Source of the DNA: Trypanosoma brucei
Lineage: Eukaryota
Assembly: GCA_000002445.1 (NCBI GenBank)
Contig: CP000071.1
Span: 864,001 to 928,000 of the forward strand
Reading direction: 5' to 3'
DNA: 64,000 nt
The notes under the pieces were generated by a model. That model was not told where the DNA came from. It did not search any database and was given only the letters and a program-made list of their open reading frames with translations. How positions within the stretch are numbered: position 1 is the stretch's first letter; the number at the start of each line of letters is the position of its first letter. This document shows, piece after piece, positions 18,494-59,209 of this stretch. A program made the position numbers and the translations under genes.

Positions 18494-18716
18494 TTTGTCG
18501 AGGCGCAAGGATGTATTAGCATAGTTTGCGCAGCGTACCGTTCTTGGTTTTCACCCCGTGGTTGCTTGGACTCCTCCCCTGCTTGAAAGTTCTGTTTGTC
18601 CCTCTGTACACGAACTTGCTGTGCGTAACTGCCGTTCTTTATTGCTTTGTGCTTGAGCTGCTTCTCTCCGCTGTTGGCTCCACGATGAATGCTCACGAGG
18701 ATCAACGTTTTTGAAG

Positions 18717-20483: not shown

Positions 20484-20709
20484 TTTGTTGAGCCGCAAGG
20501 ATGTATTAGCATAGTTTGCGCAGCGTACCGTTCTTGGTTTTCACCCCGTGGTTGCTTGGACTCCTCCCCTGCTTGAAAGTTCTGTTTGTCCCTCTGTACA
20601 CGAACTTGCTGTGCGTAACTGGCGTTCTTTATTGCTTTGTGCTTGAGCTGCTTCTCTCCCCTGTTGCATAGGAATTTGTATACCGTTTTGGGTTTTGTAG
20701 GCGGTGATT
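20484..20709 (+). promoter_or_regulatory. Intra-array intergenic spacer (~220 bp) that must hold both the polyadenylation site of the upstream copy and the trans-splice acceptor of the downstream copy. It is repeated at 18494-18716, 22504-22729 and 24524-24749.
   Basis: Pyrimidine-rich run (ttcttggttttcaccccgtggttgcttggactcctcccctgcttgaaagttctgtttgtccctctgtacac...ttctctcccctgttgcatag) ending in AG, about 40 nt before the ATG. Confidence 0.5.
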
Positions 20710-22503
20710 ATGAAAGGCGCTCAGTTTTTGAAGATGCCGTGTGTGCGTGTTTTACTAGTTCTCGTGAGGGTATTTTTTGTCCATCTGCCTTCTTTTGCTT
20801 TTGGGGATGCGTTTCCTGTGAATGGTGCGCGAGGAGGTAACAGCCAGGGCTACAATACCGATGGCATGCATCCTATTCAAGCTGAGATGCTTCCTTATGT
20901 GCGTGACATGATTGACCACGCGTTTGGTTCATACATCAAATACGCCTTTCCCAAAGATGAATTGTGTCCTGTGAGTGGTACTGGGAAGAATACGATGGGT
21001 GGCTATGGCTGGACCCTTATTGACTCTCTCGATACACTAGCAATTGCCGGGTTTCACAAAGAATTTCGTCGCCACGCGAAGTGGGTGGAAGAGCACTTGA
21101 CCTTCGATATTGACGAATCAGTGTCGGTATTTGAGACGACTATTCGAGCTCTTGGAGGTCTTCTGGCTGCTCACTTCATGTACGAGGAGGGCATAGTCCC
21201 AATTATCCCTTCGGAGCACGACTACAACGGCGGGTTCTTGCGGCTCGCTGTGGATCTTGCAGATCGTCTGATGCCCTGTTTTGACACGCCCACTGGGATA
21301 CCATATGGAAAGGTTAATTTACGCCGTGGGGTTAGTGGTGGGGAATCGCAGCTGGCCAACACGGCCGGTTCTGGGACGTTGTTAGTGGAGATGACGGTAC
21401 TGTCGAGGATCACAGGCGATGGAAAATACGAGCGTGCGGCGCGGCGTGCATCTGAGGCTCTTTTTGCGGCCAGAGATTCTCAAACTGAGCTTATGGGGAC
21501 GTATGTGTCTGTGAGTAGTGGCGGTTTTTCCTCTTCGGAGTCTTCTGTGGGTTCTGGATTAGACAGCGCCATTGAATACTTTATCAAATCACATAGTATG
21601 AGTGGGGACATTGGGGACTGGGAGCGGTTCGAGAGGACTGCGAGAGCTGTGAACCGCTATGTGCGGAAGGGTGGAATGCTGCTAGCAGCTAGCATGTATA
21701 GTGGACGGCGGCTGCAGACGTCCCAGGAATCTTTGTCATCATTTTTTCCTGGGAACTTGGTTCTTGGCGGCCATCTCCACGAGGCTGTAGAAAGTTCGTG
21801 GCCAATTCATACGTTCTTCAAACATTTTGGCGTTCTGCCGGAGATATTTTCCTTGGAATCTGGCGAGCCGTCGTGGAGGTCACATGACTACATTGGTCGA
21901 CCTGAGCATATCGAGTCTCTGTATATGCTTTACCGTGCAACACGAGATCCTACATACCTCTTGATGGGAAAAGAACTGGCACTGGCCATTAACTTGCGTA
22001 TGCGCACACCATATGGGTTTTCTTCCGTAAGTGATGTAAGGTACCCGCATCATGATGGTGTTCACAGAGACTCGATGGAGAGTTTCATGATCGCGGAGAC
22101 CCTGAAATATTTGTATCTCTTGTTTGACGAGTGCAACGCTGTTCACGTGCAGGGACGGATGGGCGGTCGCGCCTCACCGCATTGTGTTATGGACAGCGGT
22201 AGCGGCAGTAGCGTCAGCCACGTGGGGTGGGTTTTCAACACTGAAGCTCATCTGTTTCCTAATTCTGCCGAGTGGTGGGCGCCTACTTCCTTGGAGACCT
22301 TGGACAAGGAGGCTGAGGATCCCGCTGCTGCGCTCAGGCGCCAGCGTTTGGAGGTAATTGACGGTTTGCTCGCGAGTTTTGAGGAAGTGGACGGTGAGGT
22401 TGTTGGGGCGAATGATAAGGGTGGTGCAGCCCTGTACCAGTTCCACTGTGCCAATCACGCCCTGAGTGATGTAGGGAGGCTGTCGAAGTCTGTGTTTCGA
22501 TAA
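20710..22503 (+). CDS. GH47 alpha-1,2-mannosidase / EDEM-like, array copy 2 (~597 aa from MKGAQFLKMPCVRVLLVLV...).
   Basis: Near-identical to copies 3-4 except for mosaic patches. The codon at 20704 is GTG and the ATG is at 20710, with a second in-frame ATG (MPCVRV...) 8 codons later. Confidence 0.9.
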   Translation: MKGAQFLKMPCVRVLLVLVRVFFVHLPSFAFGDAFPVNGARGGNSQGYNTDGMHPIQAEMLPYVRDMIDHAFGSYIKYAFPKDELCPVSGTGKNTMGGYGWTLIDSLDTLAIAGFHKEFRRHAKWVEEHLTFDIDESVSVFETTIRALGGLLAAHFMYEEGIVPIIPSEHDYNGGFLRLAVDLADRLMPCFDTPTGIPYGKVNLRRGVSGGESQLANTAGSGTLLVEMTVLSRITGDGKYERAARRASEALFAARDSQTELMGTYVSVSSGGFSSSESSVGSGLDSAIEYFIKSHSMSGDIGDWERFERTARAVNRYVRKGGMLLAASMYSGRRLQTSQESLSSFFPGNLVLGGHLHEAVESSWPIHTFFKHFGVLPEIFSLESGEPSWRSHDYIGRPEHIESLYMLYRATRDPTYLLMGKELALAINLRMRTPYGFSSVSDVRYPHHDGVHRDSMESFMIAETLKYLYLLFDECNAVHVQGRMGGRASPHCVMDSGSGSSVSHVGWVFNTEAHLFPNSAEWWAPTSLETLDKEAEDPAAALRRQRLEVIDGLLASFEEVDGEVVGANDKGGAALYQFHCANHALSDVGRLSKSVFR

Positions 22504-22729
22504 TTTGTCGAGGCGCAAGGATGTATTAGCATAGTTTGCGCAGCGTACCGTTCTTGGTTTTCACCCCGTGGTTGCTTGGACTCCTCCCCTGCTTGAAAGT
22601 TCTGTTTGTCCCTCTGTACACGAACTTGCTGTGCGTAACTGGCGTTCTTTATTGCTTTGTGCTTGAGCTGCTTCTCTCCCCTGTTGCATAGGAATTTGTA
22701 TACCGTTTTGGGTTTTGTAGGCGGTGATT

Positions 22730-24523
22730 ATGAAAGGCGCTCAGTTTTTGAAGATGCCGTGTGTGCGTGTTTTACTAGTTCTCGTGAGGGTATTTTTTGT
22801 CCATCTGCCTTCTTTTGCTTTTGGGGATGCGTTTCCTGTGAATGGTGCGCGAGGAGGTAACAGCCAGGGCTACAATACCGATGGCATGCATCCTATTCAA
22901 GCTGAGATGCTTCCTTATGTGCGTGACATGATTGACCACGCGTTTGGTTCATACATCAAATACGCCTTTCCCAAAGATGAATTGTGTCCTGTGAGTGGTA
23001 CTGGGAAGAATACGATGGGTGGCTATGGCTGGACCCTTATTGACTCTCTCGATACACTAGCAATTGCCGGGTTTCACAAAGAATTTCGTCGCCACGCGAA
23101 GTGGGTGGAAGAGCACTTGACCTTCGATATTGACGAATCAGTGTCGGTATTTGAGACGACTATTCGAGCTCTTGGAGGTCTTCTGGCTGCTCACTTCATG
23201 TACGAGGAGGGCATAGTCCCAATTATCCCTTCGGAGCACGACTATAACGGCGGGTTCTTGCGGCTCGCTGTGGATCTTGCAGATCGTCTGATGCCCTGTT
23301 TTGACACGCCCACTGGGATACCATATGGAAAGGTTAATTTACGCAGTAAAAGTAAGGAAATGTGGATTTCGAGATCAAATACAGCTGAAGTTGGCACGAT
23401 GTTAATGGAAATGACGGTACTGTCGAGGATCACAGGCGATGAAAAATACGAGCGTGCGGCGCGGCGTGCATCTGAGGCTCTTTTTGCGGCCAGAGATTCT
23501 CAAACTGAGCTTATGGGGACGTATGTGTCTGTGAGTAGTGGCGGTTTTTCCTCTTCGGAGTCTTCTGTTGCAGGGAACATTGATAGCGCCATTGAATACT
23601 TTATCAAATCACATAGTATGAGTGGGGACATTGGGGACTGGGAGCGGTTCGAGAGGACTGCGAGAGCTGTGAACCGCTATGTGCGGAAGGGTGGAATGCT
23701 GCTAGCAGCTAGCATGTATAGTGGACGGCGGCTGCAGACGTCCCAGGAATCTTTGTCATCATTTTTTCCTGGGAACTTGGTTCTTGGCGGCCATCTCCAC
23801 GAGGCTGTAGAAAGTTCGTGGCCAATTCATACGTTCTTCAAACATTTTGGCGTTCTGCCGGAGATATTTTCCTTGGAATCTGGCGAGCCGTCGTGGATAT
23901 CACATGACTACATTGGTCGACCTGAGCATATCGAGTCTCTGTATATGCTTTACCGTGCAACACGAGATCCTACATACCTCTTGATGGGAAAAGAACTGGC
24001 ACTGGCCATTAACTTGCGTATGCGCACACCATATGGGTTTTCTTCCGTAAGTGATGTAAGGTACCCGCATCATGATGGTGTTCACAGAGACTCGATGGAG
24101 AGTTTCATGATCGCGGAGACCCTGAAATATTTGTATCTCTTGTTTGACGAGTGCAACGCTGTTCACATGCAGGGACGGATGGGCGGTCGCGCCTCACCGC
24201 ATTGTGTTATGGACAGCGGTAGCGGCAGTAGCGTCAGCCACGTGGGGTGGGTTTTCAACACTGAAGCTCATCTGTTCCCTAATTCTGCCGAGTGGTGGGC
24301 GCCTACTTCCTTGGAGACCTTGGACAAGGAGGCTGAGGATCCCGCTGCTGCGCTCAGGCGCCAGCGTTTGGAGGTAATTGACGGTTTGCTCGCGAGTTTT
24401 GAGGAAGTGGACGGTGAGGTTGTTGGGGCGAATGATAAGGGTGGTGCAGCCCTGTACCAGTTCCACTGTGCCAATCACGCCCTGAGTGATGTAGGGAGGC
24501 TGTCGAAGTCTGTGTTTCGATAA
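22730..24523 (+). CDS. GH47 alpha-1,2-mannosidase / EDEM-like, array copy 3 (~597 aa).
   Basis: Lies exactly 2020 bp downstream of copy 2. It carries the canonical ...SNTAEVGTMLMEM... patch, aligned to human ...STVAEVTSIQLEF.... Confidence 0.9.
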   Translation: MKGAQFLKMPCVRVLLVLVRVFFVHLPSFAFGDAFPVNGARGGNSQGYNTDGMHPIQAEMLPYVRDMIDHAFGSYIKYAFPKDELCPVSGTGKNTMGGYGWTLIDSLDTLAIAGFHKEFRRHAKWVEEHLTFDIDESVSVFETTIRALGGLLAAHFMYEEGIVPIIPSEHDYNGGFLRLAVDLADRLMPCFDTPTGIPYGKVNLRSKSKEMWISRSNTAEVGTMLMEMTVLSRITGDEKYERAARRASEALFAARDSQTELMGTYVSVSSGGFSSSESSVAGNIDSAIEYFIKSHSMSGDIGDWERFERTARAVNRYVRKGGMLLAASMYSGRRLQTSQESLSSFFPGNLVLGGHLHEAVESSWPIHTFFKHFGVLPEIFSLESGEPSWISHDYIGRPEHIESLYMLYRATRDPTYLLMGKELALAINLRMRTPYGFSSVSDVRYPHHDGVHRDSMESFMIAETLKYLYLLFDECNAVHMQGRMGGRASPHCVMDSGSGSSVSHVGWVFNTEAHLFPNSAEWWAPTSLETLDKEAEDPAAALRRQRLEVIDGLLASFEEVDGEVVGANDKGGAALYQFHCANHALSDVGRLSKSVFR

Positions 24524-24749
24524 TTTGTCGAGGCGCAAGGATGTATTAGCATAGTTTGCGCAGCGTACCGTTCTTGGTTTTCACCCCGTGGTTGCTTGGA
24601 CTCCTCCCCTGCTTGAAAGTTCTGTTTGTCCCTCTGTACACGAACTTGCTGTGCGTAACTGCCGTTCTTTATTGCTTTGTGCTTGAGCTGCTTCTCTCCC
24701 CTGTTGTATAGGAATTTGTATACCGTTTTGGGTTTTGTAGGCGGTGATT

Positions 24750-26063
24750 ATGAAAGGCGCTCAGTTTTTGAAGATGCCGTGTGTGCGTGTTTTACTAGTT
24801 CTCGTGAGGGTATTTTTTGTCCATCTGCCTTCTTTTGCTTTTGGGGATGCGTTTCCTGTGAATGGTGCGCGAGGAGGTAACAGCCAGGGCTACAATACCG
24901 ATGGCATGCATCCTATTCAAGCTGAGATGCTTCCTTATGTGCGTGACATGATTGACCACGCGTTTGGTTCATACATCAAATACGCCTTTCCCAAAGATGA
25001 ATTGTGTCCTGTGAGTGGTACTGGGAAGAATACGATGGGTGGCTATGGCTGGACCCTTATTGACTCTCTCGATACACTAGCAATTGCCGGGTTTCACAAA
25101 GAATTTCGTCGCCACGCGAAGTGGGTGGAAGAGCACTTGACCTTCGATATTGACGAATCAGTGTCGGTATTTGAGACGACTATTCGAGCTCTTGGAGGTC
25201 TTCTGGCTGCTCACTTCATGTACGAGGAGGGCATAGTCCCAATTATCCCTTCGGAGCACGACTACAACGGCGGGTTCTTGCGGCTCGCTGTGGATCTTGC
25301 AGATCGTCTGATGCCCTGTTTTGACACGCCCACTGGGATACCATATGGAAAGGTTAATTTACGCAGTAAAAGTAAGGAAATGTGGATTTCGAGATCAAAT
25401 ACAGCTGAAGTTGGCACGATGTTAATGGAAATGACGGTACTGTCGAGGATCACAGGCGATGAAAAATACGAGCGTGCGGCGCGGCGTGCATCTGAGGCTC
25501 TTTTTGCGGCCAGAGATTCTCAAACTGAGCTTATGGGGACGTATGTGTCTGTGAGTAGTGGCGGTTTTTCCTCTTCGGAGTCTTCTGTTGCAGGGAACAT
25601 TGATAGCGTCATTGAATACTTTATCAAATCACATAGTATGAGTGGGGACATTGGGGACTGGGAGCGGTTCGAGAGGACTGCGAGAGCTGTGAACCGCTAT
25701 GTGCGGAAGGGTGGAATGCTGCTAGCAGCTAGCATGTATAGTGGACGGCGGCTGCAGACGTCCCAGGAATCTTTGTCATCATTTTTTCCTGGGAACTTGG
25801 TTCTTGGCGGCCATCTCCACGAGGCTGTAGAAAGTTCGTGGCCAATTCATACGTTCTTCAAACATTTTGGCGTTCTGCCGGAGATATTTTCCTTGGAATC
25901 TGGCGAGCCGTCGTGGATATCACATGACTACATTGGTCGACCTGAGCATATCGAGTCTCTGTATATGCTTTACCGTGCAACACGAGATCCTACATACCTC
26001 TTGATGGGAAAAGAACTGGCACTGGCCATTAACTTGCCTGCGTTGAGCTGTTTTTTTTTTTGA
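24750..26063 (+). pseudogene. 3'-truncated GH47 copy 4. Homology to the array unit ends at ~26036, after codon ~430, and the frame closes after 9 junk codons (…LALAINLPALSCFFF*).
   Basis: Identical to copy 3 up to gaactggcactggccattaacttgc. It then diverges into cctgcgttgagctgtttttttttttg, so the C-terminal ~165 codons present in the other copies, including the conserved ETLKYLYLLF and FNTEAH blocks, are missing. Confidence 0.75.
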
Positions 26064-45089: not shown

Positions 45090-47398
45090 ATAGGAACCAT
45101 GGAATTCTCTGCAAGTGAGCGGTTATTGTAATGCTTGCGTGTGATGAGTAAGGGAATAAAAGTTGTGGAACTTCGGTTTCAATATCAGCGGCAAAGGGGC
45201 TACGCCATGGGCACACACATATGCATGTGTGTATGTGCGAGTAGGGCACCCGAATGTGTGTGCTTGGCTGCTACATCGCAGCCACGTGTTTGTGTTTGTG
45301 TGCGTGGCACGCTGCTTACTTTATTTTATTCTATTTTTTTTTTCGCATTTTCCCTACGTTTGTTAAATTTTCTCTTATTTCCACATAAAGTGCTGGATGA
45401 AATGAAGATAAACGACATGGTGGTGTAGGGATGAATCTCACCGAGGAAAAAAAGAAAAAAGGGGGAAAACGAAAAACACCACTAAAAACAAAACAAAAAA
45501 AACAAACAGTTCAACTCATACCTTAAAGAGAGTAAAGAGATGCCAAGAGGGGAACGAAAATCTCACAAACACATACTATCGATAGAAGATAGAAGTAAAC
45601 TCGCAATTGGTAAAACAAAAGGAGGGATGATGGTGATGATAAGGGTGCCGATGGTAAGGAGGTGGAGAGAACAGGAATGTTACGAGCAACTGCTGTTGCA
45701 ACTGGAGACGGGGGAGCGGCAATAAATGGAACGATACAAAAGGGTGAAGGTAAAGGCGACAGTAAAGGAATGTATTTGCGGTGAGTCGGTTCTTTTTCGT
45801 GTTGTATTGCTTCATTCTTTTTGTTTTATTTTTGTTTTAGAGGGTGCATATGTCTTCATCCCGTTTGCTGACTCAAATACCTTTCTAACAAACTTATTGG
45901 CCATTTATTCTTGGGCTTTCTTGTTTCCACACGTGGTTTTTCTTCTTTTCCTCTTTCGGGTCGTTTTCGCATCCATTCCGTCAACCTCCTCGCTATCGTT
46001 GTATTTTTTCCGGCTTCGTTCTTTGTTCCCACTTGTGTTTTTTTCTTTACTTTCTGTGCTTTTATTATGATTACTATTATCATTATCATTATTGTTTTTT
46101 TTTCGTTTTCTCTCCTTCCTACACTCCCCAAAACGAGAGAGAAAGGAAAAAGAAACTTGTACGCCACTTTCACAAATGGATGTTGGCGCACAGTTTTCAT
46201 TCCCCGTGTTCGTGTTTGTATAAAATCTATAGGGCATTATCTGGGACTTGCATGAGCGGTGAAAGCCGTCTTTGCTTGCTTCTCTCCTTTGCTCTCTTGT
46301 TTATTGTTTCTTTTTTCTATTTTGTGTGTGCGTGGCCGCTGCGTATCCAATGATTTTTGCACGCCTCGACTCCTCTCTCTCTTACTTTCTTTCGCTCCAG
46401 CGATAAGAAATAGGGAGAACAGCCACAACTAACTAACTAAATAAAAAAAAATAAAAAGAAACGGTCAGGAGGAAGAGAGGGAATAGTCAGGAAAACTAGA
46501 GAATGAAGTGGGAGAGCACGAATAAAAAAAGTGTAGGATGCTTTTCCTGCTGGCAATGCGGGTGTGAGGCAGCTAGGCTGTAGGTGTATTTGTGTATTTT
46601 GATCTTCGCGTGATTGAATACTCAGCTCTCGCCTCCACTTTTATTTTATTTTCCTCCATGCACCGTTCTCATACTTCACCTGTCATTTTCTTTCTCTTTC
46701 TCTGTGCTTCGTGCTTATAGCGAAGGATTCGGTACGCTTGACCGTGAGAGAGGGGGCCCACCAAGTGTTTTTTGTCTTTTTTTTTTTAAACTTTCAATCT
46801 CTTCCTTCCACTCATTTTCGTACTTTTGTATATCCTTTGCGTCTGTTTCTGCTTCATCCCGGTTCTTGTTTTTTTTTTTGCCCACGCTTCATTCTTCTGC
46901 TGTGGAGGGAGGGGGGAAGGGGTTTGAATGTGCCGTTATGAGTCTTGGGTCTAATGTCGACACAACCGTGAGGGTGCCGTGCTGTGGAATGGAGGTGAAG
47001 GAGAGGGAAGAATTTCAGGGAAAGGTGACAAAAAAGAGATTATGTGAAGTGAAAATAGAAGGGAGTGAAACAAAACACCAAAAGTAAAAAAAAAAGGTAC
47101 AGCGGCTAAGGGAGACGGGATGTGAAAGAGGACAGATGAAAGGAAACGAGCAAGTTTGTTTGGCCCCACGTGGCTCCCAGTTCCCCCTTCAACTACCGTC
47201 GACTCGACGATCGTGTGGGATTGTTTTGTCAGCCCTCCTCTCCGCTTCGCCTGGTCCCCCTTTCTTGCTTTCTTTTCTTTTTGTTTTGTGTGCGTGTTTC
47301 TATTCTTCCGGCCCAATGCGTGTCCCCAACGCGTAGGCAACCTAAAACGTTTTGGTTTGTTTTACAGTTTTCGCTTATTTTTCTCTTTTTCTTTCATT

Positions 47399-47416
47399 TG
47401 TGTGTGTGTGTGTGTG
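47399..47416. repeat. (TG)9 microsatellite.
   Basis: tgtgtgtgtgtgtgtgtg, read directly. Confidence 0.9.
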
Positions 47417-49658
47417 TTTCGCTTAGAGACTTCACTAGAGCCACCTGTCAATACCTTCACACGGTGCGCCGCTTTTTCTTCCATACTGCGCGCATGGACG
47501 TCTGAGGCTCATGTTCATGTGTGTTTTTCCTCGAGTGTACGACATAGCGGCGCTACTGGCGGCTGCAAGGTCGAGTCATTCCCCTTCTTTCTCGTTTGTT
47601 TCTTCTTTTGGATTTCTTGTCTTGTTTTTTTTTGTTAACGCTGTGCCCTTCTTTCCTCGCGTTCCTCGGAACCAATTGCGGTTTCTTTCGTTCTTATGTA
47701 TGACCCCGCCCCTCTTCCATTTGATGTCGCAACGGTCCACCTCTTTCTTTCTAGTGGCCACGTTTTTGTGTTAAGTTACTTGAAGTAGCGATGGGAGAAG
47801 CCTTTTATTGTTTTTTTTGTTTCAGCAGTCCTCTTGTGCCTGTGTTCGTGTTTTTGCGCTTTTGCTTGTGACTGCGGGGCGGGTGTCTTTTCTTTTTTTC
47901 TTTCTCTGCAATCAATTCACTCGTGTGCAATCACGTCTTTCTCAGTTGATTTTTTTTTGTTTCGAGGGTTTGTTTTTCTCCTTTTCCCACTCCCTGTACG
48001 GATGTGCGCATGGAACATACATAAATATATATATGTATTCGTTTCTATATGTTTATTTATACATATATGCGTACATGCTATTTATTTACTGTTGGCCTTT
48101 GGATCTTTTGATGGGATTAGGCCGGCGGGAAAAGGAACGGAGGGTGAGACGTTGGTTGAAGGGAGTTGCTGACACTGCATTGGGGGAAAACTGCGAGTGG
48201 CGGTGATTGTGTGCGTGTTGTAAGACATGAAGCAATGATGATGTGGAAACAGACAGTGAAAGGCATCTGTACGCATACGCGGCGGGCCTTTTCTCTCCTT
48301 AATTTTCGTTCTGTTTCTTGTTTTTCCCCCCTCTTATCTCTCCCTACTTCTCACACTGCGGCTGTGTCTGTGGCGTGACGTTGTTTGGCACATTTATCTT
48401 GTGGAGGGCACACTTTTTTCTTTTTCCTGTTTCTTTTTTCCCTTTTCCTCTTACAACATTCCCATTAACTACCGAAATGGGACAAATTTGGAGGGAAGGC
48501 TGGAAACTGGAGAAAACACCAAAAACAAAACCAAAACAACAACGGCACCAAACGGATGAGCGGGCGAGTGGAGTTCGAAGGTAGACAAGAAATACATATG
48601 CGAGAGGATGTATTTTACCGTTCCTCTCCTTTCAATAGTTTTCCTTCCCCCCTTTCCCCAGACACGAAATATCCCCTTTTCAAGTTTTAACCTGTGTACA
48701 TGCTTTGCGTCTTCCCATCTTCTTTGCTCTTTGTTATTATTGTTATTGATTTACTTATTTGTTTAACGTGAACTTTTTAACTGTTCCCATTTCGTAGCAG
48801 CATGTGGGTTGAACCTCGACCCGAGTGCCTCAACTTTGGCTGCCGCCGGACTGAAAGTGCTGCTGTGGGAAAGTCAGAAGAGGGAAGTGCAAGAACGACG
48901 CGGCAATAATGGAGTGCAACCGCATGCACAAGTTTGTCGGGCTGGTGTTGTCACGCAGCGTTTATTTGCGCCTGTACATGCATGAATACGTGCGTGTTTA
49001 TGAGGGGTTACGAGGAAACAAAGTGCGGGCATGAACTCCAGGGGAGGAGGAAATAAATAACTGGAAAAAAAAAGGAAAGAATAGTGTGGCCGATGCGTAT
49101 GGCTCTGGTGGAAGATGAGGTTCATGTGCGGCAACTCACCGGGCTCTACTCTACATTTCTCTTTTCTTTTTTTTTTTGTCATGCAAATGTTTTTCTCTCC
49201 GATGTTCGTTCCTTTTGCCTCTCTTCCTCCCTTTTGTTTAACGGTGTGACGTGCTTCATAAGCCTTCTCCGTAGTGCAGTAACTGAAGCAGTTCATCGTT
49301 GCTGGGGGGGGGCATGTGCTTGCGTTTTGAAGGTGTGTGTGTGTGGGACTCGCGTGGGTGCGAACTAAACCAAGCCAAGAAGGAAAGAAAAGAAAAAAAA
49401 TGCAGAACAGAAAAAGAAAAATAAAGAGGAGGGAAAAAGATTAATAACTAGACGGTGTGGGGACTACACTGATAAGATGACCAAATTGGTTTGTTATGTT
49501 TTCCAAGTACGGTGGAAGAGTTTCGATTGCGCATTCCCTCCCTTTTTTTTACCTTTCCTACGACCACTGCGTGCTTCCTTCTTTTCATCCAAACGCCCAG
49601 TTGGGGGCCAAGGAAGAGGAAGAAACATTGGCTCGGATTTCTCCATTAAGGATGTCTG

Positions 49659-49659
49659 C

Positions 49660-49686
<27 letters not shown>
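49659..49686. repeat. (AT)14 microsatellite.
   Basis: atatatatatatatatatatatatatat, read directly. Confidence 0.9.
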
Positions 49687-49691
<5 letters not shown>

Positions 49692-51644
49692 TATTTGCTT
49701 GTTTTTTTGTACCCTCCTCCAATTTTTGTTTTCCTCACCATGCGCATGTTTTCTTCTTTCCCTTCTCTCTTTTCTTGGCTATATGCCCGCTGACTGTTTT
49801 GGAGGCGGTAAGGACATCAAACGAAGAAAAATTCAGTGCAGGTGACAAAACAAAAGCAAGTACGACTCAGCAATACGTAAGTGTATATGTATTTTCTCGC
49901 ATATGTGTATTAACATATTGCTCCACCCCCATTCAGCTTATGCACCTTTTCCCTGTATTTCTGTATAGTTTGTGCTGCATTGCCGTTAAGTTCACCCTTA
50001 CGATGCCAGCGGTGATGATCTTTTTTTTCTTCTCACCATTGCTTTCCTCCTCCTCCTCCCCTTTTTTGTCTCTTGTATTTGCAGTGGCATCGTTTCTAAC
50101 GGCCATGCGGATCACAATTTTGTACCGACCGCACGGACATGCACTCACGCTGCCACCACTACTGCTGCAGATGTCACCCGCAGACACTCCGGTGTCTCCT
50201 TAGCATTTCGGGCCCTTCAATACTTTTACTCGCTTACTTCATCGTAACCATCACGGGGAGGGGAGACGGCGTATATGAAGGCAGGAGCAATAATATGAAG
50301 CAACATCAACTTTTGTCCCAACTGGAATGCTAACACTCGAAACGGAGCTGACACTTCTCACCTGCAAGGAGGGTAAAATAACAAAAAGTTATCCTTCTAT
50401 CCTACCGTTTCTACCTTTTACAAGCACTTGCGGAGCCACTTGGGACACTTAGGTGCTTTCTGCTCAGTAGGGCCGCGTTCAAAACCAAAAAAAAAAATGA
50501 ATCCTTTATGTGACCTAAATCCCGACGGCTGGTTTGCGGTCACAAATAAACCTACAGTATGAGCGGCTCCAAAGCGGGTTGACACTCGATGTTTCTCCAG
50601 CCAAATGCCACAAACGCATCATTTGCTGCACATATGCAGAGTTGGGGGTTGTGGTGGAGGTTTTGTACCTTGACGATCGCTCTGCATGCTGCATTCGGGA
50701 CACCACCACTCGAAGATGCACCGCTTTGGGGGAAATATGGGGGATACAATTCGGTGTGCTGATATAACTCTGCGCACCACCGATGATCTGTTCCGTCGTA
50801 TGTAAATGCGTTAATCATAAACGTACATAGCGACTGAATTGAGCCCGAAACCGGAAGCGATGTGTATTGTAAATTGCACTGTGTTTGGCAATGTGTTGTG
50901 CGTTGGGGGACCAAAGTCATGTGATGAGGCGCTGCGAGCATAATATTCGCGTGGTTACATACCAATACGTTGGTAGCGAATGGTTTTGCCCTTTACTAAC
51001 CGGGTGGCACCCGCACAACTCTGCAAGGACTTGATCCCGCTTAAGTTTGCGTGCACTGATGAAAAACAACCTGCTTATATTCGAGCGTGGTCCGGGCACC
51101 ACTAACCGTGTTTTGATTCCGTTATATTACCTCCATCCCCTTTTCGTGGTTGATGCACTACCCGCGAGCCGTTCTTTTTATTTGGTCTCAAATGTCTACT
51201 CACGTGTTTTGTTGTTGTGCCTGCGCTACATTTATCAGCCGATGATGCGGGAGACGTAGGAAGTCTGTGAGTTGTAGCAAAAGGTCTTTCTGTTGGCGGT
51301 ACGGTGTTTGCTTTGGCTTTACTCCGTTTCAGTGCTTATGAGCGTTCGTTCAGTTGTGGTTCCACGCTTCGTGTTGTACTGAATGGGAATACTGCGTTTC
51401 GCCTGTCACACTCTGTGCACGTGGTTTGTTCGTGAGTGTACTTTCTTTCCAGGTGTTTGAGTGTCTGTGTGCCGCTACAATTTATCCTTTTGTGTGTTGC
51501 CTTACTGCCCTTTGCTCCGCGGTGAAGCATTTCCTGTAGATTGTGGACGTTCTCAAACTTTTTTCCTTATTCGCCTTCCCTTTTCTCCCAGTGGTAGGCA
51601 GCGTGAAGCTGTGGATACTGCACCGGTATATTTCTCGTTTCCGT

Positions 51645-52253
51645 ATGTTTCGCATATCCTCATGTTTTCACAGTTTCTTTCTCAATGCTGTCCGCTGCAC
51701 CTTCATCGCTGACGTGCTGTACGGCTGCCGTTACAGCCCACACATTGGAATGTGCCACCATCCGTACGTGTACGTGAAAACAGTGTTGTTTTGCGTCTCC
51801 AGTCGTCCGGAGCAGCGGCTTGAACGTGAGTATATGCGTGGTCTTATCGAACACCTTGTCGCGTGCGATGCGAAGCACGATACGCAGACAAAACTAGAAC
51901 TGATGCGGTTTGTTGACGTCGTGCCGGCCGCCGCAAGCCTCGGTGGTAGCGGCCACAGTGAGGTGCTGAGCGCCGGAAAAATGGGTGGTGAAAGCGGAAT
52001 GTCCTCTTTCTTCACGGGTACTCTCTTCCCCGCAGTGTTGGGTCATGTGTTACTATACGACGCGGTTTGCGTATGTATGTCAGGTGGTTTGTACGACGAT
52101 GCGGCGCGCGACTGCGTGGCGCAGGTGGCGGCAAGGCTAGGTGTCTCTCAGCACGGCCGGGAAATGATTGAAAAAGCGGCAATACGTGAGCATCAGTTGG
52201 CTGCGATGAAGCGGCAGCTGCTTCTCCTACCTGAGACCCCGCCACTGCGTTGA
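51645..52253 (+). CDS. Small hypothetical protein (~200 aa from the first ATG; start uncertain).
   Basis: The ORF-track entry begins at a GTG (51543) inside a T/C-rich splice-acceptor-like tract, and the first in-frame ATG is at 51645. The C-terminal half (…VAQVAARLGVSQHGREMIEKAAIREHQLAAMKRQLLLLPETPPLR) looks like real coding sequence. No motif recognised. Confidence 0.35.
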   Translation: MFRISSCFHSFFLNAVRCTFIADVLYGCRYSPHIGMCHHPYVYVKTVLFCVSSRPEQRLEREYMRGLIEHLVACDAKHDTQTKLELMRFVDVVPAAASLGGSGHSEVLSAGKMGGESGMSSFFTGTLFPAVLGHVLLYDAVCVCMSGGLYDDAARDCVAQVAARLGVSQHGREMIEKAAIREHQLAAMKRQLLLLPETPPLR

Positions 52254-53138
52254 GAGACGCTTTGGGAGGTAACTGCAAGAGCGGCACCCGTCTAATTTTG
52301 GAGTGGAAAGGCTTGCAAGAGCTGTGTAGTTGTCTTACATTGTCTTTGGCGTGTGCATGGGCAAGGTTGCGGTATTGGTGTGCTTCCCAAATCCTGCTGC
52401 TCCATGCGTTTTATTCCTTGTTGTCACTGCTATGTTTTGCGTGTCCCATCGTGTTAGTAAATTAAACCTCAATAGCCACCACGACTCGATCATCAGAACA
52501 TTGGAGTGTTGACGCATTGGCTTAGAACCTGTGACCCGCCTCTTCGCAAATGTGGCGCCGGTGCATAGCGATGTTTTTGCCACTGTGTTGATTGTAATGC
52601 CTAAGTTGACGTGCACAACTTGATCCCTTAGCGTTGAGGAGGGATGCGCGAAGGCGAAGGGATTGAATGTCTTCTCTTGATGTGTTTTTTTTCTTATTGT
52701 CGACTTTCTTGTCGGCGTTGCCGTGCCCCCCAATTGGCGTGAGTCGAGGAGCTTGCACACATAGCTTGCGCGCACAGCATCACTAGACTTCTGTGGGGTT
52801 CATGTGTGGTGTGTCTCGACATTGGCATTGCGATCGCTATCAAAAGCTGCAATAGCGGATAGTGTATAGACGGCAGTTACAGCCGTGATCGCACAGCGGT
52901 AAGAGGCATAATGTTTATAGTGCACGACACAAAACAATGAATCCAATGGCGACCTGTGCCTTCCCCCAAATAACCTGGAAAAATATCTCTGTCTATTTAC
53001 TGTGAAGTTGGACGTAGCTCTGCTTTCTTCCTTCTCCTTTTTGCCTTTGCCCACTACAGTCATTCTAACAAGGTTAGCAGCCTTTTTGTTGTCGTTGTTG
53101 TAAACCCGCAGGAAACAAGTACATATTTGAGTGACGCA

Positions 53139-55953: not shown

Positions 55954-57969
55954 ATGCTCAAGAGAGTTATTGCGAGGGCAAGCCTCCCCAAGTCGTTGGA
56001 TGTACTGCCGCTTTTTTCTTTTTCGAAGAAGGGCAAGGGTGGTATCGAGAAGGTTGCTGGTGACAGCCAAGTAAAATCCCTTGTGTCCCACCCAAAATGC
56101 GTGTCGGCACATTTTTGCAATCCTAAGGACCACTCTGAAGCTTTACGTGAAGACGACGATGGAGGTGATGTGGATAAACACGACGCAGTGGATGTGCCTT
56201 TTGGTTTCCGTGATGCACCGGGGAATATTTTGTTGGATCCGGAGCGGCGGCGCCTCTTTGCCGGCATTGGTGAGAAACCAACGGTGCGGGACTATCGCCT
56301 AGCCGTGACGGCTGCTGTACGCGAAGCGTCTAAGTTAAAAGCATCAGCACTGGTTATGCGTTCTCTGCCAAATGTGCTGTATTCGGTTGGAGACTTGTTT
56401 CAGCCTGCGAGCGCTCTCCCGGCGGAGGACGTAGCTGAAAAAACGGTTACTTATGCCGTCGCGGCGGCGTATCGGTACGACCGATTTCTATCGAAGGCTA
56501 AAGGTGGCTTGCCCCCTCCGAGCCGTGGTAGGCGAAATAAGGCGGTTGCAGAAGGGAGTCATGAGCAGTTGAATTTAATTATTGACTGCGGGGACAAGAC
56601 TTCTATTGCCAGTGGAAATATCATTGGACATTGCATAAATGACGCACGAAACCTGGGTAATCTTCGTGAGGATGAGGGCACTCCGCAGTTTTACTGTGAG
56701 TGGATTCATCAGGAACTGGCCCCACTTGGCATTAAGGTGCAGAACGTGTTGCACGGAGAGCAGCTTGAGAAGGCGGGGTTGAACCTCATATACAACGTTG
56801 GAAAGGGGTCAAAACACACGCCTTATTTGGTTGTGTTTGAGTACGTCGGTGACAAGAGGAGCAATAAGGCAACTGCCCTCGTGGGCAAGGGTGTTACATT
56901 TGATTGCGGTGGTCTTAACATTAAACCATTCGGGTCGATGGAGACGATGCACATGGATATGATGGGTGCAGCCACGGTTATGGCTACGATGAAGGCTATC
57001 GCCGAACTTCAACTACCAGTTAACGTTGTGGCCGCCGTTGGGCTCGCGGAAAACGCGATCGGTCCAAGCAGCTACCACCCATCATGCATTTTGACTAGCC
57101 GCAAAGGACTAAGTGTTGAGGTGTTGAACACGGATGCCGAGGGGAGGCTTGTACTTGCTGACACACTGACTTACCTTCAGAAGGACGCTAAACTAGTGAA
57201 GAAGGCCGATACGATCATCGACATTGCGACCCTCACAGGCGCAATTGTTGTCGGCCTTGGGAGCCGGCGTGCAGGTCTCTTTGGCAACGACATCGCGCTG
57301 GTGCAGCAGCTTATGGCTAGCGGGCGAAGCAGTGGGGAGGAGGTTTGGCCGATGCCCATCGGGGATGAACACCAGAGGGCGATCAAAGGGAATATTGCCG
57401 ACCTTGTTAACGTACCGAGCGTGCGTGAGGGCGGTTCCTGCACTGCAGCGGCGTTCCTAAGCAACTTTGTGGAGAAAGATGTGAAATGGGCGCATCTTGA
57501 TATTGCAGGTTCGGGGATGGGGACCGACAAGCCAAGGGGATTCCAACCAGCGGGGGCACCCGGATTTGGTGTTGAGCTTCTGGTGGACTACTTTCGCCAG
57601 CACGTCATGGCTTCTTCAAAGGGAGTGTCGACGGGTAAGGATGGAAGCCACGGTGATGCGGAAGAGTCTACTCAAGAAGAGGGTGCTAATGCTGAAGTGA
57701 GTGAGGAAAATACCAAAAGATCTAAGACCAGCGCAGGTGGAAAGAAGTTAACGAAAAATGCCGAACCGAAGGAAGGAAAGGGCAAAGAAGCAAAACCCAA
57801 CGTGAAGGGTACGAAAGGTGGCAGAAAGGTTGGAGAAAAAGGCACGGAAGGCAAAGGAAAAGCGGCCAGCCCGGCTGAAAAGAAGAGGGTGAAAAAGGCA
57901 CCTGCGGCCAAGCAGGGTCGCCGGGCAGTGAAGGGGAACCCGAAAGGAAAGAAAAGGTCTGGCAATTGA
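55954..57969 (+). CDS. M17-family leucyl aminopeptidase with a ~100 aa lysine/glycine/alanine-rich basic C-terminal tail (671 aa).
   Basis: M17 signatures NTDAEGRLVLADTLTY and DIATLTGAIVVGLG, plus GKGVTFDCGGLNIKP (substrate and metal-binding region). True ATG at 55954. The tail is KRSKTSAGGKKLTKNAEPKEGKGKEAKPNVKGTKGGRKVGEKGTEGKGKAASPAEKKRVKKAPAAKQGRRAVKGNPKGKKRSGN. This may correspond to the kinetoplast-DNA-associated LAP1 described in T. brucei, but I cannot confirm that identity. Confidence 0.85.
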   Translation: MLKRVIARASLPKSLDVLPLFSFSKKGKGGIEKVAGDSQVKSLVSHPKCVSAHFCNPKDHSEALREDDDGGDVDKHDAVDVPFGFRDAPGNILLDPERRRLFAGIGEKPTVRDYRLAVTAAVREASKLKASALVMRSLPNVLYSVGDLFQPASALPAEDVAEKTVTYAVAAAYRYDRFLSKAKGGLPPPSRGRRNKAVAEGSHEQLNLIIDCGDKTSIASGNIIGHCINDARNLGNLREDEGTPQFYCEWIHQELAPLGIKVQNVLHGEQLEKAGLNLIYNVGKGSKHTPYLVVFEYVGDKRSNKATALVGKGVTFDCGGLNIKPFGSMETMHMDMMGAATVMATMKAIAELQLPVNVVAAVGLAENAIGPSSYHPSCILTSRKGLSVEVLNTDAEGRLVLADTLTYLQKDAKLVKKADTIIDIATLTGAIVVGLGSRRAGLFGNDIALVQQLMASGRSSGEEVWPMPIGDEHQRAIKGNIADLVNVPSVREGGSCTAAAFLSNFVEKDVKWAHLDIAGSGMGTDKPRGFQPAGAPGFGVELLVDYFRQHVMASSKGVSTGKDGSHGDAEESTQEEGANAEVSEENTKRSKTSAGGKKLTKNAEPKEGKGKEAKPNVKGTKGGRKVGEKGTEGKGKAASPAEKKRVKKAPAAKQGRRAVKGNPKGKKRSGN

Positions 57970-59209
57970 GGGGTAATGCATTGGAACCACCGTGCCGCTC
58001 GTTTCTGTATTGTGAGGAAGGGGTGTTTTTCGACACGTAAGTTCCCACAACTGGGGGTTTCGGAGATAACATGCGGTGGTGGGGCGAGAGTAAAGACGCT
58101 TACCTGATTGTTTTGGTTGGGCTTATACCCTCCTGAGCTTGTGTTGATGTCTCTGGTCCACTTTGCCTGGCCATTAACAGTCACTGGGGTTTCAAGTAAC
58201 GACAAACAATTACAAGTAGTGTTTTTTCAAAAGAAGCCAGGTGCCTTCCTTTTTGTTTTTTTGTTTTGCCAGTCCGTACAACTGTTTTTCTAGCCGTTTT
58301 ATTTTTACTACCTTCAGCTCGAATTGTTCCCTCTTTTATTTTTTTCTTCTCTCCGGGCGCTGGTCGAGTGGTATCCCTTCCCCGACCATACGTTTTCTCC
58401 CACCTTTTTGTGATAACAAACCCCCTTTCCTGTTGTTGTGATCCACCGGGTACCTTCTTCCTATTGATACACATGGGCCGTAGTGCGGTGTTTCTTTATG
58501 ATTGTCTGGGAATACGGGTTGGTTACGTTCAAATTTCATCACATCTGGCAGCCGATGGATAAGTGGCGGTATCACCCATGCCAGCGCGGGAGACAAATAT
58601 GAATGGCCCTTTCAGTGCGTGAGAAACTGAACAGGGGAGGGGGCACCATGCCTTTTCTTTTTTTTTTTTTCATGGTGTCACAGCTGACCATCATACATAG
58701 ACGTGCGGCGCTGGTCATGGACATCATTATTTGGTCGTGCCTAATGGGCCCCGCGTGCAATTTATTAAATTTGTATTTTGGTTTGTTTGTCGCATTTAAG
58801 TAACTTAATTTCCATATTTATGAGTGAACTGCCTAGTTTCACAAATAGAACGCTGAATAAGCGTGTGCAAAGCGATATCGGGGGTGAGGGTGTGTGTATG
58901 TGGGGAGGGGAGTAAAATGAGTAAAACATGTGAATGGTGGTTTTTTTTTTTGCCACAGTTCGCTACTAATGGTTTTGGTTGAACTCATGATCTCTAGTAG
59001 GTGGTGAATGACTCGGAATTTGACTACACTACTAACGACCTGCCTCTGTATACACTTACTGGTCACAACTGAATCTAAAATTGCTTTGTTCCCCTTCCCA
59101 TTCCCGACGGGTGCACCTACTCTTAATCTTTCTTTCCACACGAGGTATTTTCCCAACTCTCCAGACTCTGGTGGTAAGTAGGAGCGGAAAGTGACAAATA
59201 GTATTTGTG

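What the first reader, a model, noticed from the sequence alone, without database searches (positions are those of the whole stretch)
57640..57969. M17 leucyl aminopeptidase fused to a histone-H1-like K/G/A-rich basic tail
Canonical M17 catalytic signatures are followed, after the usual C-terminus, by ~100 residues that are about 35% Lys with G/A/P spacers (KKLTKNAEPKEGKGKEAKPNVKGTKGGRKVGEKGTEGKGKAASPAEKKRVKKAPAAKQGRRAVKGNPKGKKRSGN). This composition is typical of trypanosomatid H1 and other DNA-binding tails and is unusual on a peptidase. Bacterial M17 PepA moonlights as a DNA-binding protein. A kinetoplast-DNA-associated M17 aminopeptidase (LAP1) has been described in T. brucei; this may be that gene, and the tail would be the obvious DNA-contact element.
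Basis: partly seen in the sequence, partly recalled or inferred. Interest (0 to 1): 0.55.

Follow-up and report, generated by a model that had tools for sequence, protein, structure and literature searches.

The report
Known kDNA aminopeptidase TbLAP1, basic tail
This is the already published Trypanosoma brucei mitochondrial-DNA-associated leucyl aminopeptidase TbLAP1. Its lysine-rich, disordered C-terminal tail is real and carries almost all of the protein's positive charge, but nobody has yet shown that it is what binds the DNA.

Summary
The ORF 55954-57969 (+) encodes a 671-aa M17 leucyl aminopeptidase identical to T. b. brucei TREU927 XP_847137.1. The published TbLAP1 (Tb927.8.3060) tagging and qPCR primers match it with no mismatches. 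So this is the described kDNA/nabelschnur protein.

The tail is real. The M17 fold ends near residue 550. Residues 549-671 have no Pfam domain and AlphaFold predicts 555-671 as disordered. The tail has two parts: an acidic spacer (549-585, net -7) and a K/G/A-rich block (586-671, net +24). Lysine is 28-29%, not 35%; K+R is 35-36%. The tail carries +17 of the protein's +18 net charge. Without it, the calculated pI falls from 9.3 to 7.6.

It is not a frameshift. Four Trypanozoon alleles keep it, and an in-frame C-terminal GFP fusion was expressed.

All other Trypanosoma orthologues seen have fast-evolving tails with a basic C-terminal end, mostly acidic-then-basic. The T. congolense model is the exception. 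Leishmaniinae, Phytomonas and bodonids have no tail.

A DNA-contact role is plausible but untested. The tail-less L. major orthologue also causes kinetoplast loss when overexpressed. The 2017 paper already noted "extra 100 amino acids". The gene is known, and the residual novelty is modest.

The parts
55954..57969 (+). Complete TbLAP1 (Tb927.8.3060, LAP-B) coding sequence, 671 codons plus stop
   Evidence: ORF found. Identical to P0122 = XP_847137.1/AAZ13071.1, T. b. brucei TREU927. Published qPCR primers match 56168-56187 (+) and 56226-56245 (-) exactly.
55954..56043 (+). N-terminal basic presequence (MLKRVIARASLPKSL...). This is the presumed mitochondrial targeting signal; the boundaries are approximate.
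   Evidence: The published paper reports that four predictors call a mitochondrial signal. The MLK/RRV..R.P.P start is shared by the kinetoplastid orthologues. Residues 1-45 have net charge +6.
56482..56568 (+). Basic, low-confidence insertion at the junction of the N-domain and the catalytic domain (aa 177-205, net +5)
   Evidence: pLDDT is below 50 for residues 180-203. The same position carries larger basic insertions in Leishmaniinae (+6 to +8), and K/R/G-rich insertions lie upstream of the catalytic domain in deeper relatives.
56644..57585 (+). M17 catalytic domain (aa 231-544) with an intact active site, including NTDAEGRL at 57127-57150
   Evidence: Pfam PF00883, E 4e-106. Best solved-structure match E 9e-69. 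K312, D317, K324, D335, D394, E396 and R398 are invariant in the orthologue alignment.
57598..57708 (+). Acidic/Ser-rich spacer, the first part of the tail (aa 549-585, net -7)
   Evidence: Charge split. From residue 555 onward pLDDT is below 50 and no secondary structure is predicted.
57709..57966 (+). Polycationic K/G/A-rich block (aa 586-671): K 28%, R 7%, G 17%, A 12%, net +24, no aromatic residues. Predicted disordered.
   Evidence: No Pfam match. The coding DNA of the whole tail is 71.5% purine, against 54% for the core.
57877..57966 (+). Target of the published forward primer for C-terminal in-situ GFP tagging. It ends on the last sense codon.
   Evidence: Exact 90-nt match to the primer printed in PMC5397073. 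This shows the tail frame is translated in vivo.
57979..58059 (-). Target of the published reverse tagging primer in the 3' UTR
   Evidence: Exact 81-nt match.

Best explanation
The gene is TbLAP1, the mitochondrial M17 leucyl aminopeptidase already shown to sit on the kDNA disc and the nabelschnur of T. brucei.

Its last ~120 residues are an intrinsically disordered extension added onto a complete M17 fold. The extension has an acidic spacer followed by an 86-residue polycationic K/G/A block.

The most likely mechanism is non-specific electrostatic binding. The basic block would bind the DNA phosphate backbone, as linker-histone tails, KAPs and the Lys-rich regions of other kDNA proteins are thought to do. 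M17 enzymes are hexamers, so one particle would carry six flexible arms, with about +100 net tail charge. That would give multivalent, salt-sensitive binding able to hold the enzyme on kDNA or bridge it. The acidic spacer would act as a flexible stand-off or charge modulator.

Shown here or in the literature:
- gene identity
- an intact active site
- translation of the tail
- association with kDNA that is released by DNase treatment and/or sonication
- the tail dominating the protein's charge
- predicted disorder
- restriction of the tail to the genus Trypanosoma, with conserved charge pattern but not sequence

Inferred:
- direct contact between the tail and DNA
- the hexameric state of this enzyme
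- multivalency
- any role for the acidic spacer
For: Identity:
- The published primers match exactly.
- The protein is identical to XP_847137.1.

The tail lies outside the fold:
- The Pfam match ends at residue 544.
- Solved M17 chains, including the T. brucei paralogue LAP-A (5nsk, 521 aa), end at the equivalent of residue ~550.
- AlphaFold gives pLDDT 27-38 and no secondary structure for 555-671.

Charge:
- The core (1-548) has net +1 and pI 7.6; the tail has net +17 and pI 10.2.
- The basic block is 35% K+R. Gluenz 2007 quotes 25-30% for KAPs and about 20% for core histones.

Evolution:
- Every Trypanosoma orthologue except the T. congolense model has a 64-135-aa tail ending in a basic block. 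Tail net charge ranges from +4 to +18.
- Tail identity is only 18-32% between species and 61-65% between very close pairs, whose cores are 86-95% identical. That is composition-level constraint typical of functional disordered regions.

Literature on TbLAP1:
- TbLAP1-GFP stuck in the gel well until DNase treatment and/or sonication.
- Tagged and untagged copies co-purified, which the authors attribute to oligomer formation.
- Only 2 of the 9 PepA DNA-binding residues are conserved, so a PepA-like surface is an unlikely explanation.
- The nabelschnur was defined by a stain for basic proteins.

Precedent: other kDNA proteins carry Lys-rich low-complexity regions. Examples are Pol beta-PAK, which is disc-wide whereas tail-less Pol beta is antipodal, the Ala/Lys-rich C-terminus of MiRF172, and the KAPs.
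Against: - No experiment has removed or isolated the tail.
- The orthologues in Leishmaniinae, Phytomonas, Bodo and Neobodo end 2-8 residues after the core. Yet overexpressing the tail-less L. major enzyme also yields kinetoplast-less cells and swollen kinetoplasts. A kDNA-linked function therefore does not need the tail in that lineage. Those proteins instead carry positive charge in the N-domain and linker insertions.
- The T. congolense model, from the closest species available, stops about 11 residues into the basic block. Its tail is net -3 and the whole protein +1. I could not tell whether this is real or an assembly error.
- A 27-kDa GFP fused to the very end of the tail changed neither localisation nor fitness. 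This is neutral, but it shows that a free C-terminus is not needed.
- The authors state they cannot assert direct DNA binding.
Confidence: 0.5

Rival explanations
1. The tail is a lineage-specific accessory that is not the kDNA-targeting element. Association with kDNA would come from the folded hexamer or from partner proteins. Candidates are the basic N-domain and linker insertion, a residual PepA-like surface, TAC/kDNA proteins or TbNAB70. The tail would only tune affinity, dynamics or solubility, or would be nearly neutral.
For: - Tail-less orthologues are the ancestral and most widespread state.
- The tail-less L. major orthologue gives a kinetoplast-loss phenotype on overexpression.
- The T. 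congolense model lacks the basic block.
- Tail sequence is almost unconstrained.
- Net positive charge of the whole protein is roughly conserved across the clade (+6 to +23, apart from the T. congolense model), but its location varies.
Against: - In T. brucei the core is nearly neutral (net +1, pI 7.6). Without the tail little electrostatic drive remains.
- Only 2 of 9 PepA DNA-binding residues are kept.
- Pull-downs recovered no partner proteins.
- A basic C-terminal block is retained in 9 further Trypanosoma tails besides the Trypanozoon ones, despite rapid sequence turnover. That argues against neutrality.
Confidence: 0.32
2. The bipartite acidic/basic tail works mainly through protein-protein or self-interaction rather than through DNA. 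Possibilities are charge-driven self-assembly or condensation into the filamentous nabelschnur, binding to acidic partners or RNA, or intramolecular regulation of the peptidase.
For: - The block-wise acidic-then-basic order recurs across most Trypanosoma tails.
- The nabelschnur stains for basic protein.
- Ectopic TbLAP1 accumulates around the disc.
Against: - The gel-entry block was released by DNase treatment and/or sonication, which points to DNA.
- The review describes the nabelschnur as likely consisting of maxicircles, with LAP1 colocalising with them.
- There is no direct evidence for self-association through the tail.
Confidence: 0.14
3. The tail is an annotation or sequencing artefact: a frameshift, or read-through into a purine-rich 3' UTR.
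For: The tail DNA is 71.5% purine and low in complexity. Such sequence can give long open frames by chance.
Against: - Four Trypanozoon alleles share the same 671-aa frame.
- The other two frames are closed by 5 and 7 stops.
- Orthologous tails exist in the other Trypanosoma species.
- In-frame GFP and V5 fusions at codon 671 were expressed and localised.
Confidence: 0.01

Closest known systems
TbLAP1 / LAP-B, Tb927.8.3060 (Pena-Diaz et al. 2017, PMC5397073)
   Same: It is the same gene. The protein is identical to the TREU927 entry and the published primers match exactly. The reported ~70 kDa size agrees with the calculated 71.3 kDa. The paper also reports a basic pI and 'extra 100 amino acids' with no known domain.
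   Different: Nothing differs in sequence. The paper does not describe the Lys-rich bipartite composition, the predicted disorder, the share of the charge carried by the tail, or its restriction to Trypanosoma. It did not test the tail.
Escherichia coli PepA (M17 aminopeptidase that moonlights in Xer/cer recombination and carAB repression)
   Same: Both are M17 enzymes associated with DNA. In PepA the DNA role does not depend on proteolysis (stated in PMC5397073).
   Different: PepA is 503 aa with no tail (1gyt) and binds DNA through residues of the folded protein. TbLAP1 keeps only 2 of those 9 residues and instead has a disordered polycationic extension.
Lys-rich regions of other kDNA proteins: KAP1-4 (H1-like), Pol beta-PAK N-terminal PAK extension, MiRF172 Ala/Lys-rich C-terminus
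   Same: All are mitochondrial, kDNA-localised proteins with low-complexity Lys-rich segments. K+R density is comparable or higher here, at 35% against 25-30% for the KAPs.
   Different: No sequence relationship was detected. The LAP1 block is Gly-rich with interspersed Glu, is preceded by an acidic spacer, and is attached to a peptidase.
Linker histone H1 C-terminal domain
   Same: Both are disordered polycationic tails of roughly 90-100 residues. The H1 tail is expected to neutralise DNA charge non-specifically (general knowledge).
   Different: There is no linker-histone profile match and no S/TPKK motifs. Composition is G 17% > A 12% > P 6%, rather than Ala/Pro-rich. The location is mitochondrial.
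Leishmania major LmLAP, LmjF.23.0950 (basic M17 LAP)
   Same: It is the orthologue (51-59% identity for the Leishmania proteins over the aligned 66-82% of the query) with a basic pI. Overexpression causes kinetoplast loss.
   Different: It ends 4 residues after the catalytic domain. Its positive charge sits in the N-domain and the linker insertion.

Membership tests
Peptidase family M17 (leucyl aminopeptidase) | Match to the M17 catalytic-domain profile | tested here: met
   PF00883, E 4e-106, residues 231-544 covering profile positions 3-310 of 310. There are 35 solved M17 chains with E down to 9e-69.
Peptidase family M17 (leucyl aminopeptidase) | Two-metal site and catalytic residues (bovine lens LAP K250, D255, K262, D273, D332, E334, R336) and the NTDAEGRL signature | tested here: met
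   K312, D317, K324, D335, D394, E396 and R398 are present with the same spacings (+5, +7, +11, +59, +2, +2) and are invariant in 19 orthologues. NTDAEGRL is at residues 392-399. The bovine numbering is from established knowledge.
Peptidase family M17 (leucyl aminopeptidase) | Homohexameric assembly | not testable with these tools
   Only a monomer was modelled. The literature reports co-purification of tagged and untagged copies, which suggests oligomers.
Peptidase family M17 (leucyl aminopeptidase) | Aminopeptidase activity | not tested
   No activity data for TbLAP1 were found in the papers read.
TbLAP1 / trypanosomatid LAP-B orthologue group | Sequence identity with Tb927.8.3060 | tested here: met
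   Four published primers match with 0 mismatches. The protein has 0 differences from XP_847137.1.
TbLAP1 / trypanosomatid LAP-B orthologue group | Localisation to the kDNA disc and nabelschnur | not testable with these tools
   Published for this gene.
Linker histone H1 / H1-like kinetoplast-associated proteins | Detectable sequence or profile similarity to a linker-histone or KAP family | tested here: not met
   The tail matches no Pfam family even at E<=10. The whole protein matches only M17 families. The tail-only database search returned nothing, but it did not recover the query's own protein either, so it is uninformative.
Linker histone H1 / H1-like kinetoplast-associated proteins | High Lys+Arg density (25-30% in KAPs) | tested here: met
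   35% K+R in residues 586-671. The reference values come from Gluenz 2007.
Linker histone H1 / H1-like kinetoplast-associated proteins | Small stand-alone basic protein that condenses DNA | tested here: not met
   The basic segment is a tail on a 671-aa enzyme. DNA condensation was not tested.
PepA-type DNA-binding M17 | Conservation of the PepA residues required for DNA binding | not tested
   Not recomputed here. The authors report that 2 of 9 are conserved.
AT-hook / SPKK minor-groove motifs | Presence of an RGRP or S/TP[KR][KR] motif | tested here: not met
   A regex scan of the tail found none. Only K[KR]x[KR] and GKGK patterns occur.

The most novel reading that the evidence does not exclude
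Trypanosoma LAP1 acquired a fast-evolving acidic-then-basic disordered tail. This tail would relocate the clade's conserved positive charge from the folded N-domain and linker, where Leishmaniinae carry it, to six flexible arms per hexamer. The peptidase would then act as a multivalent DNA cross-linker or condenser. It could be a structural basic-protein component of the nabelschnur, and the unusually long K/G/A block of T. brucei might be linked to that structure having been seen only in this species.
Probability: 0.2. Interest if true: 0.55.

Novelty: already known. Interest (0 to 1): 0.3.

Why it matters
How TbLAP1, one of only a few proteins reported on the nabelschnur, attaches to kDNA is still unexplained. 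Its authors could not assert direct binding and found few PepA-like DNA-binding residues.

This analysis shows that nearly all of the protein's positive charge lies in one disordered, deletable 86-residue block. It also shows that the block is specific to the genus. That gives a precise, inexpensive experiment: delete or transplant residues 586-671.

The analysis also adds a caution. Tail-less orthologues still affect the kinetoplast.

None of this changes the picture of M17 enzymes or of kDNA biology. It sharpens a hypothesis about a protein that is already characterised.

Tried and rejected
1. Frameshift or UTR read-through was rejected.
2. Homology of the tail to H1, KAPs or any other domain was not found. 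Pfam gave nothing at E<=10. The tail-only search of the 5.8-billion-protein set found nothing, but it did not recover the query's own protein either, presumably because of low complexity, so it is uninformative.
3. AT-hook and SPKK motifs are absent.
4. An internal tandem repeat as the origin of the tail is not supported. Only a trivial 11-nt, 2.4-copy repeat was found at 57813-57838.
5. I tried to fetch the T. congolense locus to see whether its short tail is an assembly error. The protein is not on record with a contig, so this stays unresolved.
6. The organisms behind two Logan orthologues (P0005 from SRR16767846, P0010 from SRR8792709) could not be named.
7. I did not use fold search or the representative-library search. 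The M17 fold is unambiguous, and a low-complexity query would return compositional noise.
8. The pI computed here (9.27) differs from the published 9.8, probably because of different pK sets. The drop to 7.6 without the tail is the relevant result.
Full report
**What is at the coordinates**

The finding lies in the 3' end of one long ORF, 55954-57969 on the + strand, 671 codons. Position 57640 is the first base of codon 563, and the span runs to the stop codon.

**The enzyme part**

- Pfam finds a full-length M17 catalytic domain: PF00883, E 4e-106, residues 231-544, profile positions 3-310 of 310. There is only a sub-threshold trace of the M17 N-domain.
- Thirty-five solved M17 chains match, the best at E 9e-69.
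- The seven residues that bind the two metals and perform catalysis in bovine lens LAP are present as K312, D317, K324, D335, D394, E396 and R398, with identical spacing. They are invariant across 19 kinetoplastid orthologues. NTDAEGRL is at residues 392-399. The bovine numbering is from established knowledge.
- The peptidase therefore looks catalytically competent.

**Where the usual protein ends**

In the solved chains the alignment stops at query residue 547-549, and the chains end 1-6 residues later. Examples are 3h8e (aligned to 491 of 497), 8pz0 (513 of 517) and the T. brucei paralogue LAP-A 5nsk (520 of 521).

**Identity**

- The protein is 99% identical to a T. b. gambiense entry.
- It is identical to P0122, which carries accessions XP_847137.1/AAZ13071.1 of T. 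b. brucei TREU927.
- Pena-Diaz et al. 2017 (PMC5397073) print the primers they used on TbLAP1 (Tb927.8.3060).
- The 90-nt homology arm of the forward GFP-tagging primer matches window 57877-57966 with no mismatch and ends on the last sense codon.
- The 81-nt arm of the reverse primer matches 57979-58059 on the minus strand.
- Both qPCR primers match inside the ORF.
- The gene is therefore the published kDNA/nabelschnur protein, which Timm et al. 2017 call LAP-B.

**Anatomy of the tail**

- Taking residue 548 as the end of the core, the tail is 123 residues: 26 K, 6 R, 15 D+E, net +17, pI 10.2.
- It has two parts. Residues 549-585 are acidic and Ser-rich (net -7). Residues 586-671 are polycationic: K 27.9%, R 7.0%, G 17.4%, A 11.6%, P 5.8%, E 7.0%, net +24.
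- The tail has no aromatic residues and only 9 hydrophobic ones.
- Lysine in the quoted peptide is 29%, not 35%. The 36% figure is K+R.
- The enrichment is not chance. P is 1.6e-9 for 22 Lys in 75 residues at the core's lysine frequency. The next richest 75-aa stretch in any other long stop-free stretch of the window has 12 Lys.
- AlphaFold, run with the orthologue alignment, folds the M17 body with confidence. Its last helix is residues 540-556.
- For 555-671 it gives pLDDT 27-38 and no secondary structure.
- No Pfam family matches the tail even at E<=10. There is no AT-hook or SPKK motif. There is no meaningful internal repeat.

**Charge bookkeeping**

The core including the presequence has net charge +1 and pI 7.6. 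The whole protein is +18, with pI 9.27 by my calculation and 9.8 in the paper. By region:

| Region | Net charge |
|---|---|
| Presequence (1-45) | +6 |
| Acidic insertion (46-85) | -6 |
| N-domain (86-176) | +2 |
| Linker insertion (177-205) | +5 |
| Catalytic domain (206-548) | -6 |
| Tail (549-671) | +17 |

The basic character that the literature cites as a hint of nucleic-acid binding resides almost entirely in the tail.

**Is the tail real protein?**

Yes.
- Four Trypanozoon sequences are all 671 aa, with only E584K and G623D differing in the tail.
- GFP and V5 fused in frame after codon 671 were expressed and localised.

**Evolution**

- All Trypanosoma orthologues recovered have C-terminal extensions of 64-135 residues. 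These are T. cruzi, two T. rangeli sequences, T. melophagium, two further named Trypanosoma entries and two unnamed SRA-derived ones.
- These tails end in a basic block of 27-50% K+R. Seven of the nine have an acidic first part.
- Sequence is barely conserved. Tails are 18-32% identical between species whose cores are 62-90% identical. They are 61-65% identical in very close pairs whose cores are 86-95% identical. That is the pattern of a disordered region constrained in composition, not in sequence.
- The T. congolense model is the exception. Its tail has 49 residues and net -3, and stops about 11 residues into what would be the basic block. I could not retrieve its DNA to check for an assembly error.
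- Leptomonas, Leishmania, Porcisia, Novymonas, Phytomonas, Bodo and Neobodo end 2-8 residues after the core. The tail is therefore an innovation at about the level of the genus Trypanosoma.
- The tail-less proteins are still basic overall (pI 8.8-9.4, net +6 to +15). In Leishmaniinae the charge is in the N-domain (+2 to +7) and in an enlarged linker insertion (+6 to +8).
- Deeper relatives carry long K/R/G-rich insertions upstream of the catalytic domain.
- Net positive charge thus seems to be the conserved property of this orthologue group, and its position moves.

**What the literature already says**

- TbLAP1 is mitochondrial and sits on the kDNA disc and the nabelschnur.
- Knock-down delays cytokinesis, with accumulation of 2K2N cells. 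Ectopic expression causes kDNA loss.
- TbLAP1-GFP would not enter a gel until treated with DNase and/or sonicated. Tagged and untagged copies co-purify.
- Only 2 of the 9 residues needed for PepA DNA binding are present.
[quoted passage not shown] It does not say where those residues lie.
- The authors say they cannot assert direct DNA binding.
- The word "lysine" does not occur in that paper or in the 2024 nabelschnur preprint. The 2022 review repeats only the pI.
- The extension has therefore been noticed, but its composition, disorder, share of the charge and phylogenetic distribution have not been described, and it has not been tested.
- The nabelschnur was discovered with ethanolic phosphotungstic acid, a stain for basic proteins.
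- Lys-rich low-complexity regions recur in kDNA proteins: the KAPs (25-30% K+R), the ~300-aa PAK extension of Pol beta-PAK, and the Ala/Lys-rich C-terminus of MiRF172. Pol beta-PAK is disc-wide, whereas the shorter Pol beta is antipodal.

**Most likely mechanism**

The tail is probably a non-specific electrostatic DNA-binding arm. If TbLAP1 is a hexamer like other M17 enzymes, one particle would present six arms, with about +100 net tail charge or +144 counting only the basic blocks. That would give avid, multivalent binding that could tether the enzyme to kDNA or bridge duplexes. The hexamer, the direct contact and any role for the acidic spacer are inferences. I put this at about 0.5.

**Main rival**

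The tail could be an accessory and kDNA association could lie elsewhere. This gains weight from three observations:
- The tail-less state is ancestral.
- The T. congolense model lacks the basic block.
- In L. major, overexpressing the tail-less orthologue LmjF.23.0950 produces 1N0K1F cells and swollen kinetoplasts (PMC11184559).

Against it, the T. brucei core is nearly neutral, few PepA residues are kept, and no partner proteins were found.

A third possibility is that the acidic/basic block pattern drives self-assembly or protein binding in the nabelschnur. The Cadena et al. preprint refers to non-nucleic-acid filaments in that structure.

**Comparison and novelty**

- The protein works like a fusion of an enzyme with a polycationic disordered tail, analogous to Pol beta-PAK or a linker-histone tail.
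- It is a member only of family M17, and specifically it is TbLAP1. It is not a member of the H1 or KAP families: there is no profile match and it is not a stand-alone protein.
- It does not use the PepA solution for DNA binding.
- Because the exact gene, its kDNA association, its basic pI and the existence of extra residues are published, I rate it already known.
- The remaining value is a sharpened, directly testable hypothesis and the comparative observation that charge has been relocated within the orthologue group.

**Verdict**

Interest is 0.3.

Noticed in passing
window 17552-26063: A head-to-tail gene array with a 2020-bp period, 4-5 copies at 95-100% identity. The ORFs 18711-20483, 20704-22503, 22724-24523 and 24744-26063 encode glycosyl hydrolase family 47 (alpha-mannosidase-like) proteins; the one scanned (20704-22503) matches PF01532 at E 4e-109.
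   Followed up: partly
window ~12200-14180: A divergent strand-switch region. Large ORFs are on the minus strand up to 12193 and on the plus strand from 14180 onward. GC skew changes sign at the same place. This fits a trypanosomatid polycistron boundary.
   Followed up: no
window 55954-56043 and orthologues P0011-P0033: The database product name 'cytosolic leucyl aminopeptidase' looks wrong for this orthologue group. An N-terminal basic presequence (MLK/RRV..R.P.P) is shared by the kinetoplastid orthologues, including Leishmania, and the T. brucei protein is experimentally mitochondrial.
   Followed up: partly
P0124 (EAN87580.1, T. cruzi, 584 aa) versus PDB 5ntf (T. cruzi aminopeptidase): Pena-Diaz 2017 calls the characterised cytosolic LAPTc orthologous to TbLAP1. 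The T. cruzi protein closest to this gene, however, is EAN87580 (its cluster representative is 58% identical and has a basic tail). The solved T. cruzi aminopeptidase 5ntf matches only at paralogue level, E 7e-50 over the catalytic domain. I take 5ntf to be the acidic LAP-A, the form that Timm 2017 equates with LAPTc, so Timm's classification fits better.
   Followed up: partly
P0034-P0037, P0042 (Logan-derived relatives, 627-875 aa): Deeper-branching relatives have no C-terminal tail. They carry long K/R/G-rich and acidic low-complexity insertions in the N-terminal half, upstream of the catalytic domain, and extra insertions inside the catalytic domain. This suggests repeated, independent gain of charged disordered segments in this M17 clade.
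   Followed up: no
P0002 (T. congolense IL3000, 596 aa): The gene model of the closest species available ends 49 residues after the core with '...EEEKMPGAKGKAVV' and lacks the polycationic block. The whole protein has net charge +1, against +10 to +23 in the other Trypanosoma orthologues. It is unresolved whether this is a real truncation or an assembly error.
   Followed up: partly
window 45100-53100: About 8 kb has no ORF of 250 aa or more. It includes the most AT-rich part of the window (GC 0.43-0.44 at 46-50 kb, with strongly negative AT skew). No tRNA gene and no Rfam family was found anywhere in the window.
   Followed up: no
window 56089-56208 (aa 46-85): There is a second lineage-variable, low-confidence segment in the N-terminal region: an acidic insertion (REDDDGGDVDKHD, net -6, pLDDT below 50 for residues 61-78). 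It is longer in the T. brucei/T. congolense and T. theileri-like/T. melophagium lineages (39-41 aa) than in the T. cruzi/T. rangeli group (23 aa).
   Followed up: no
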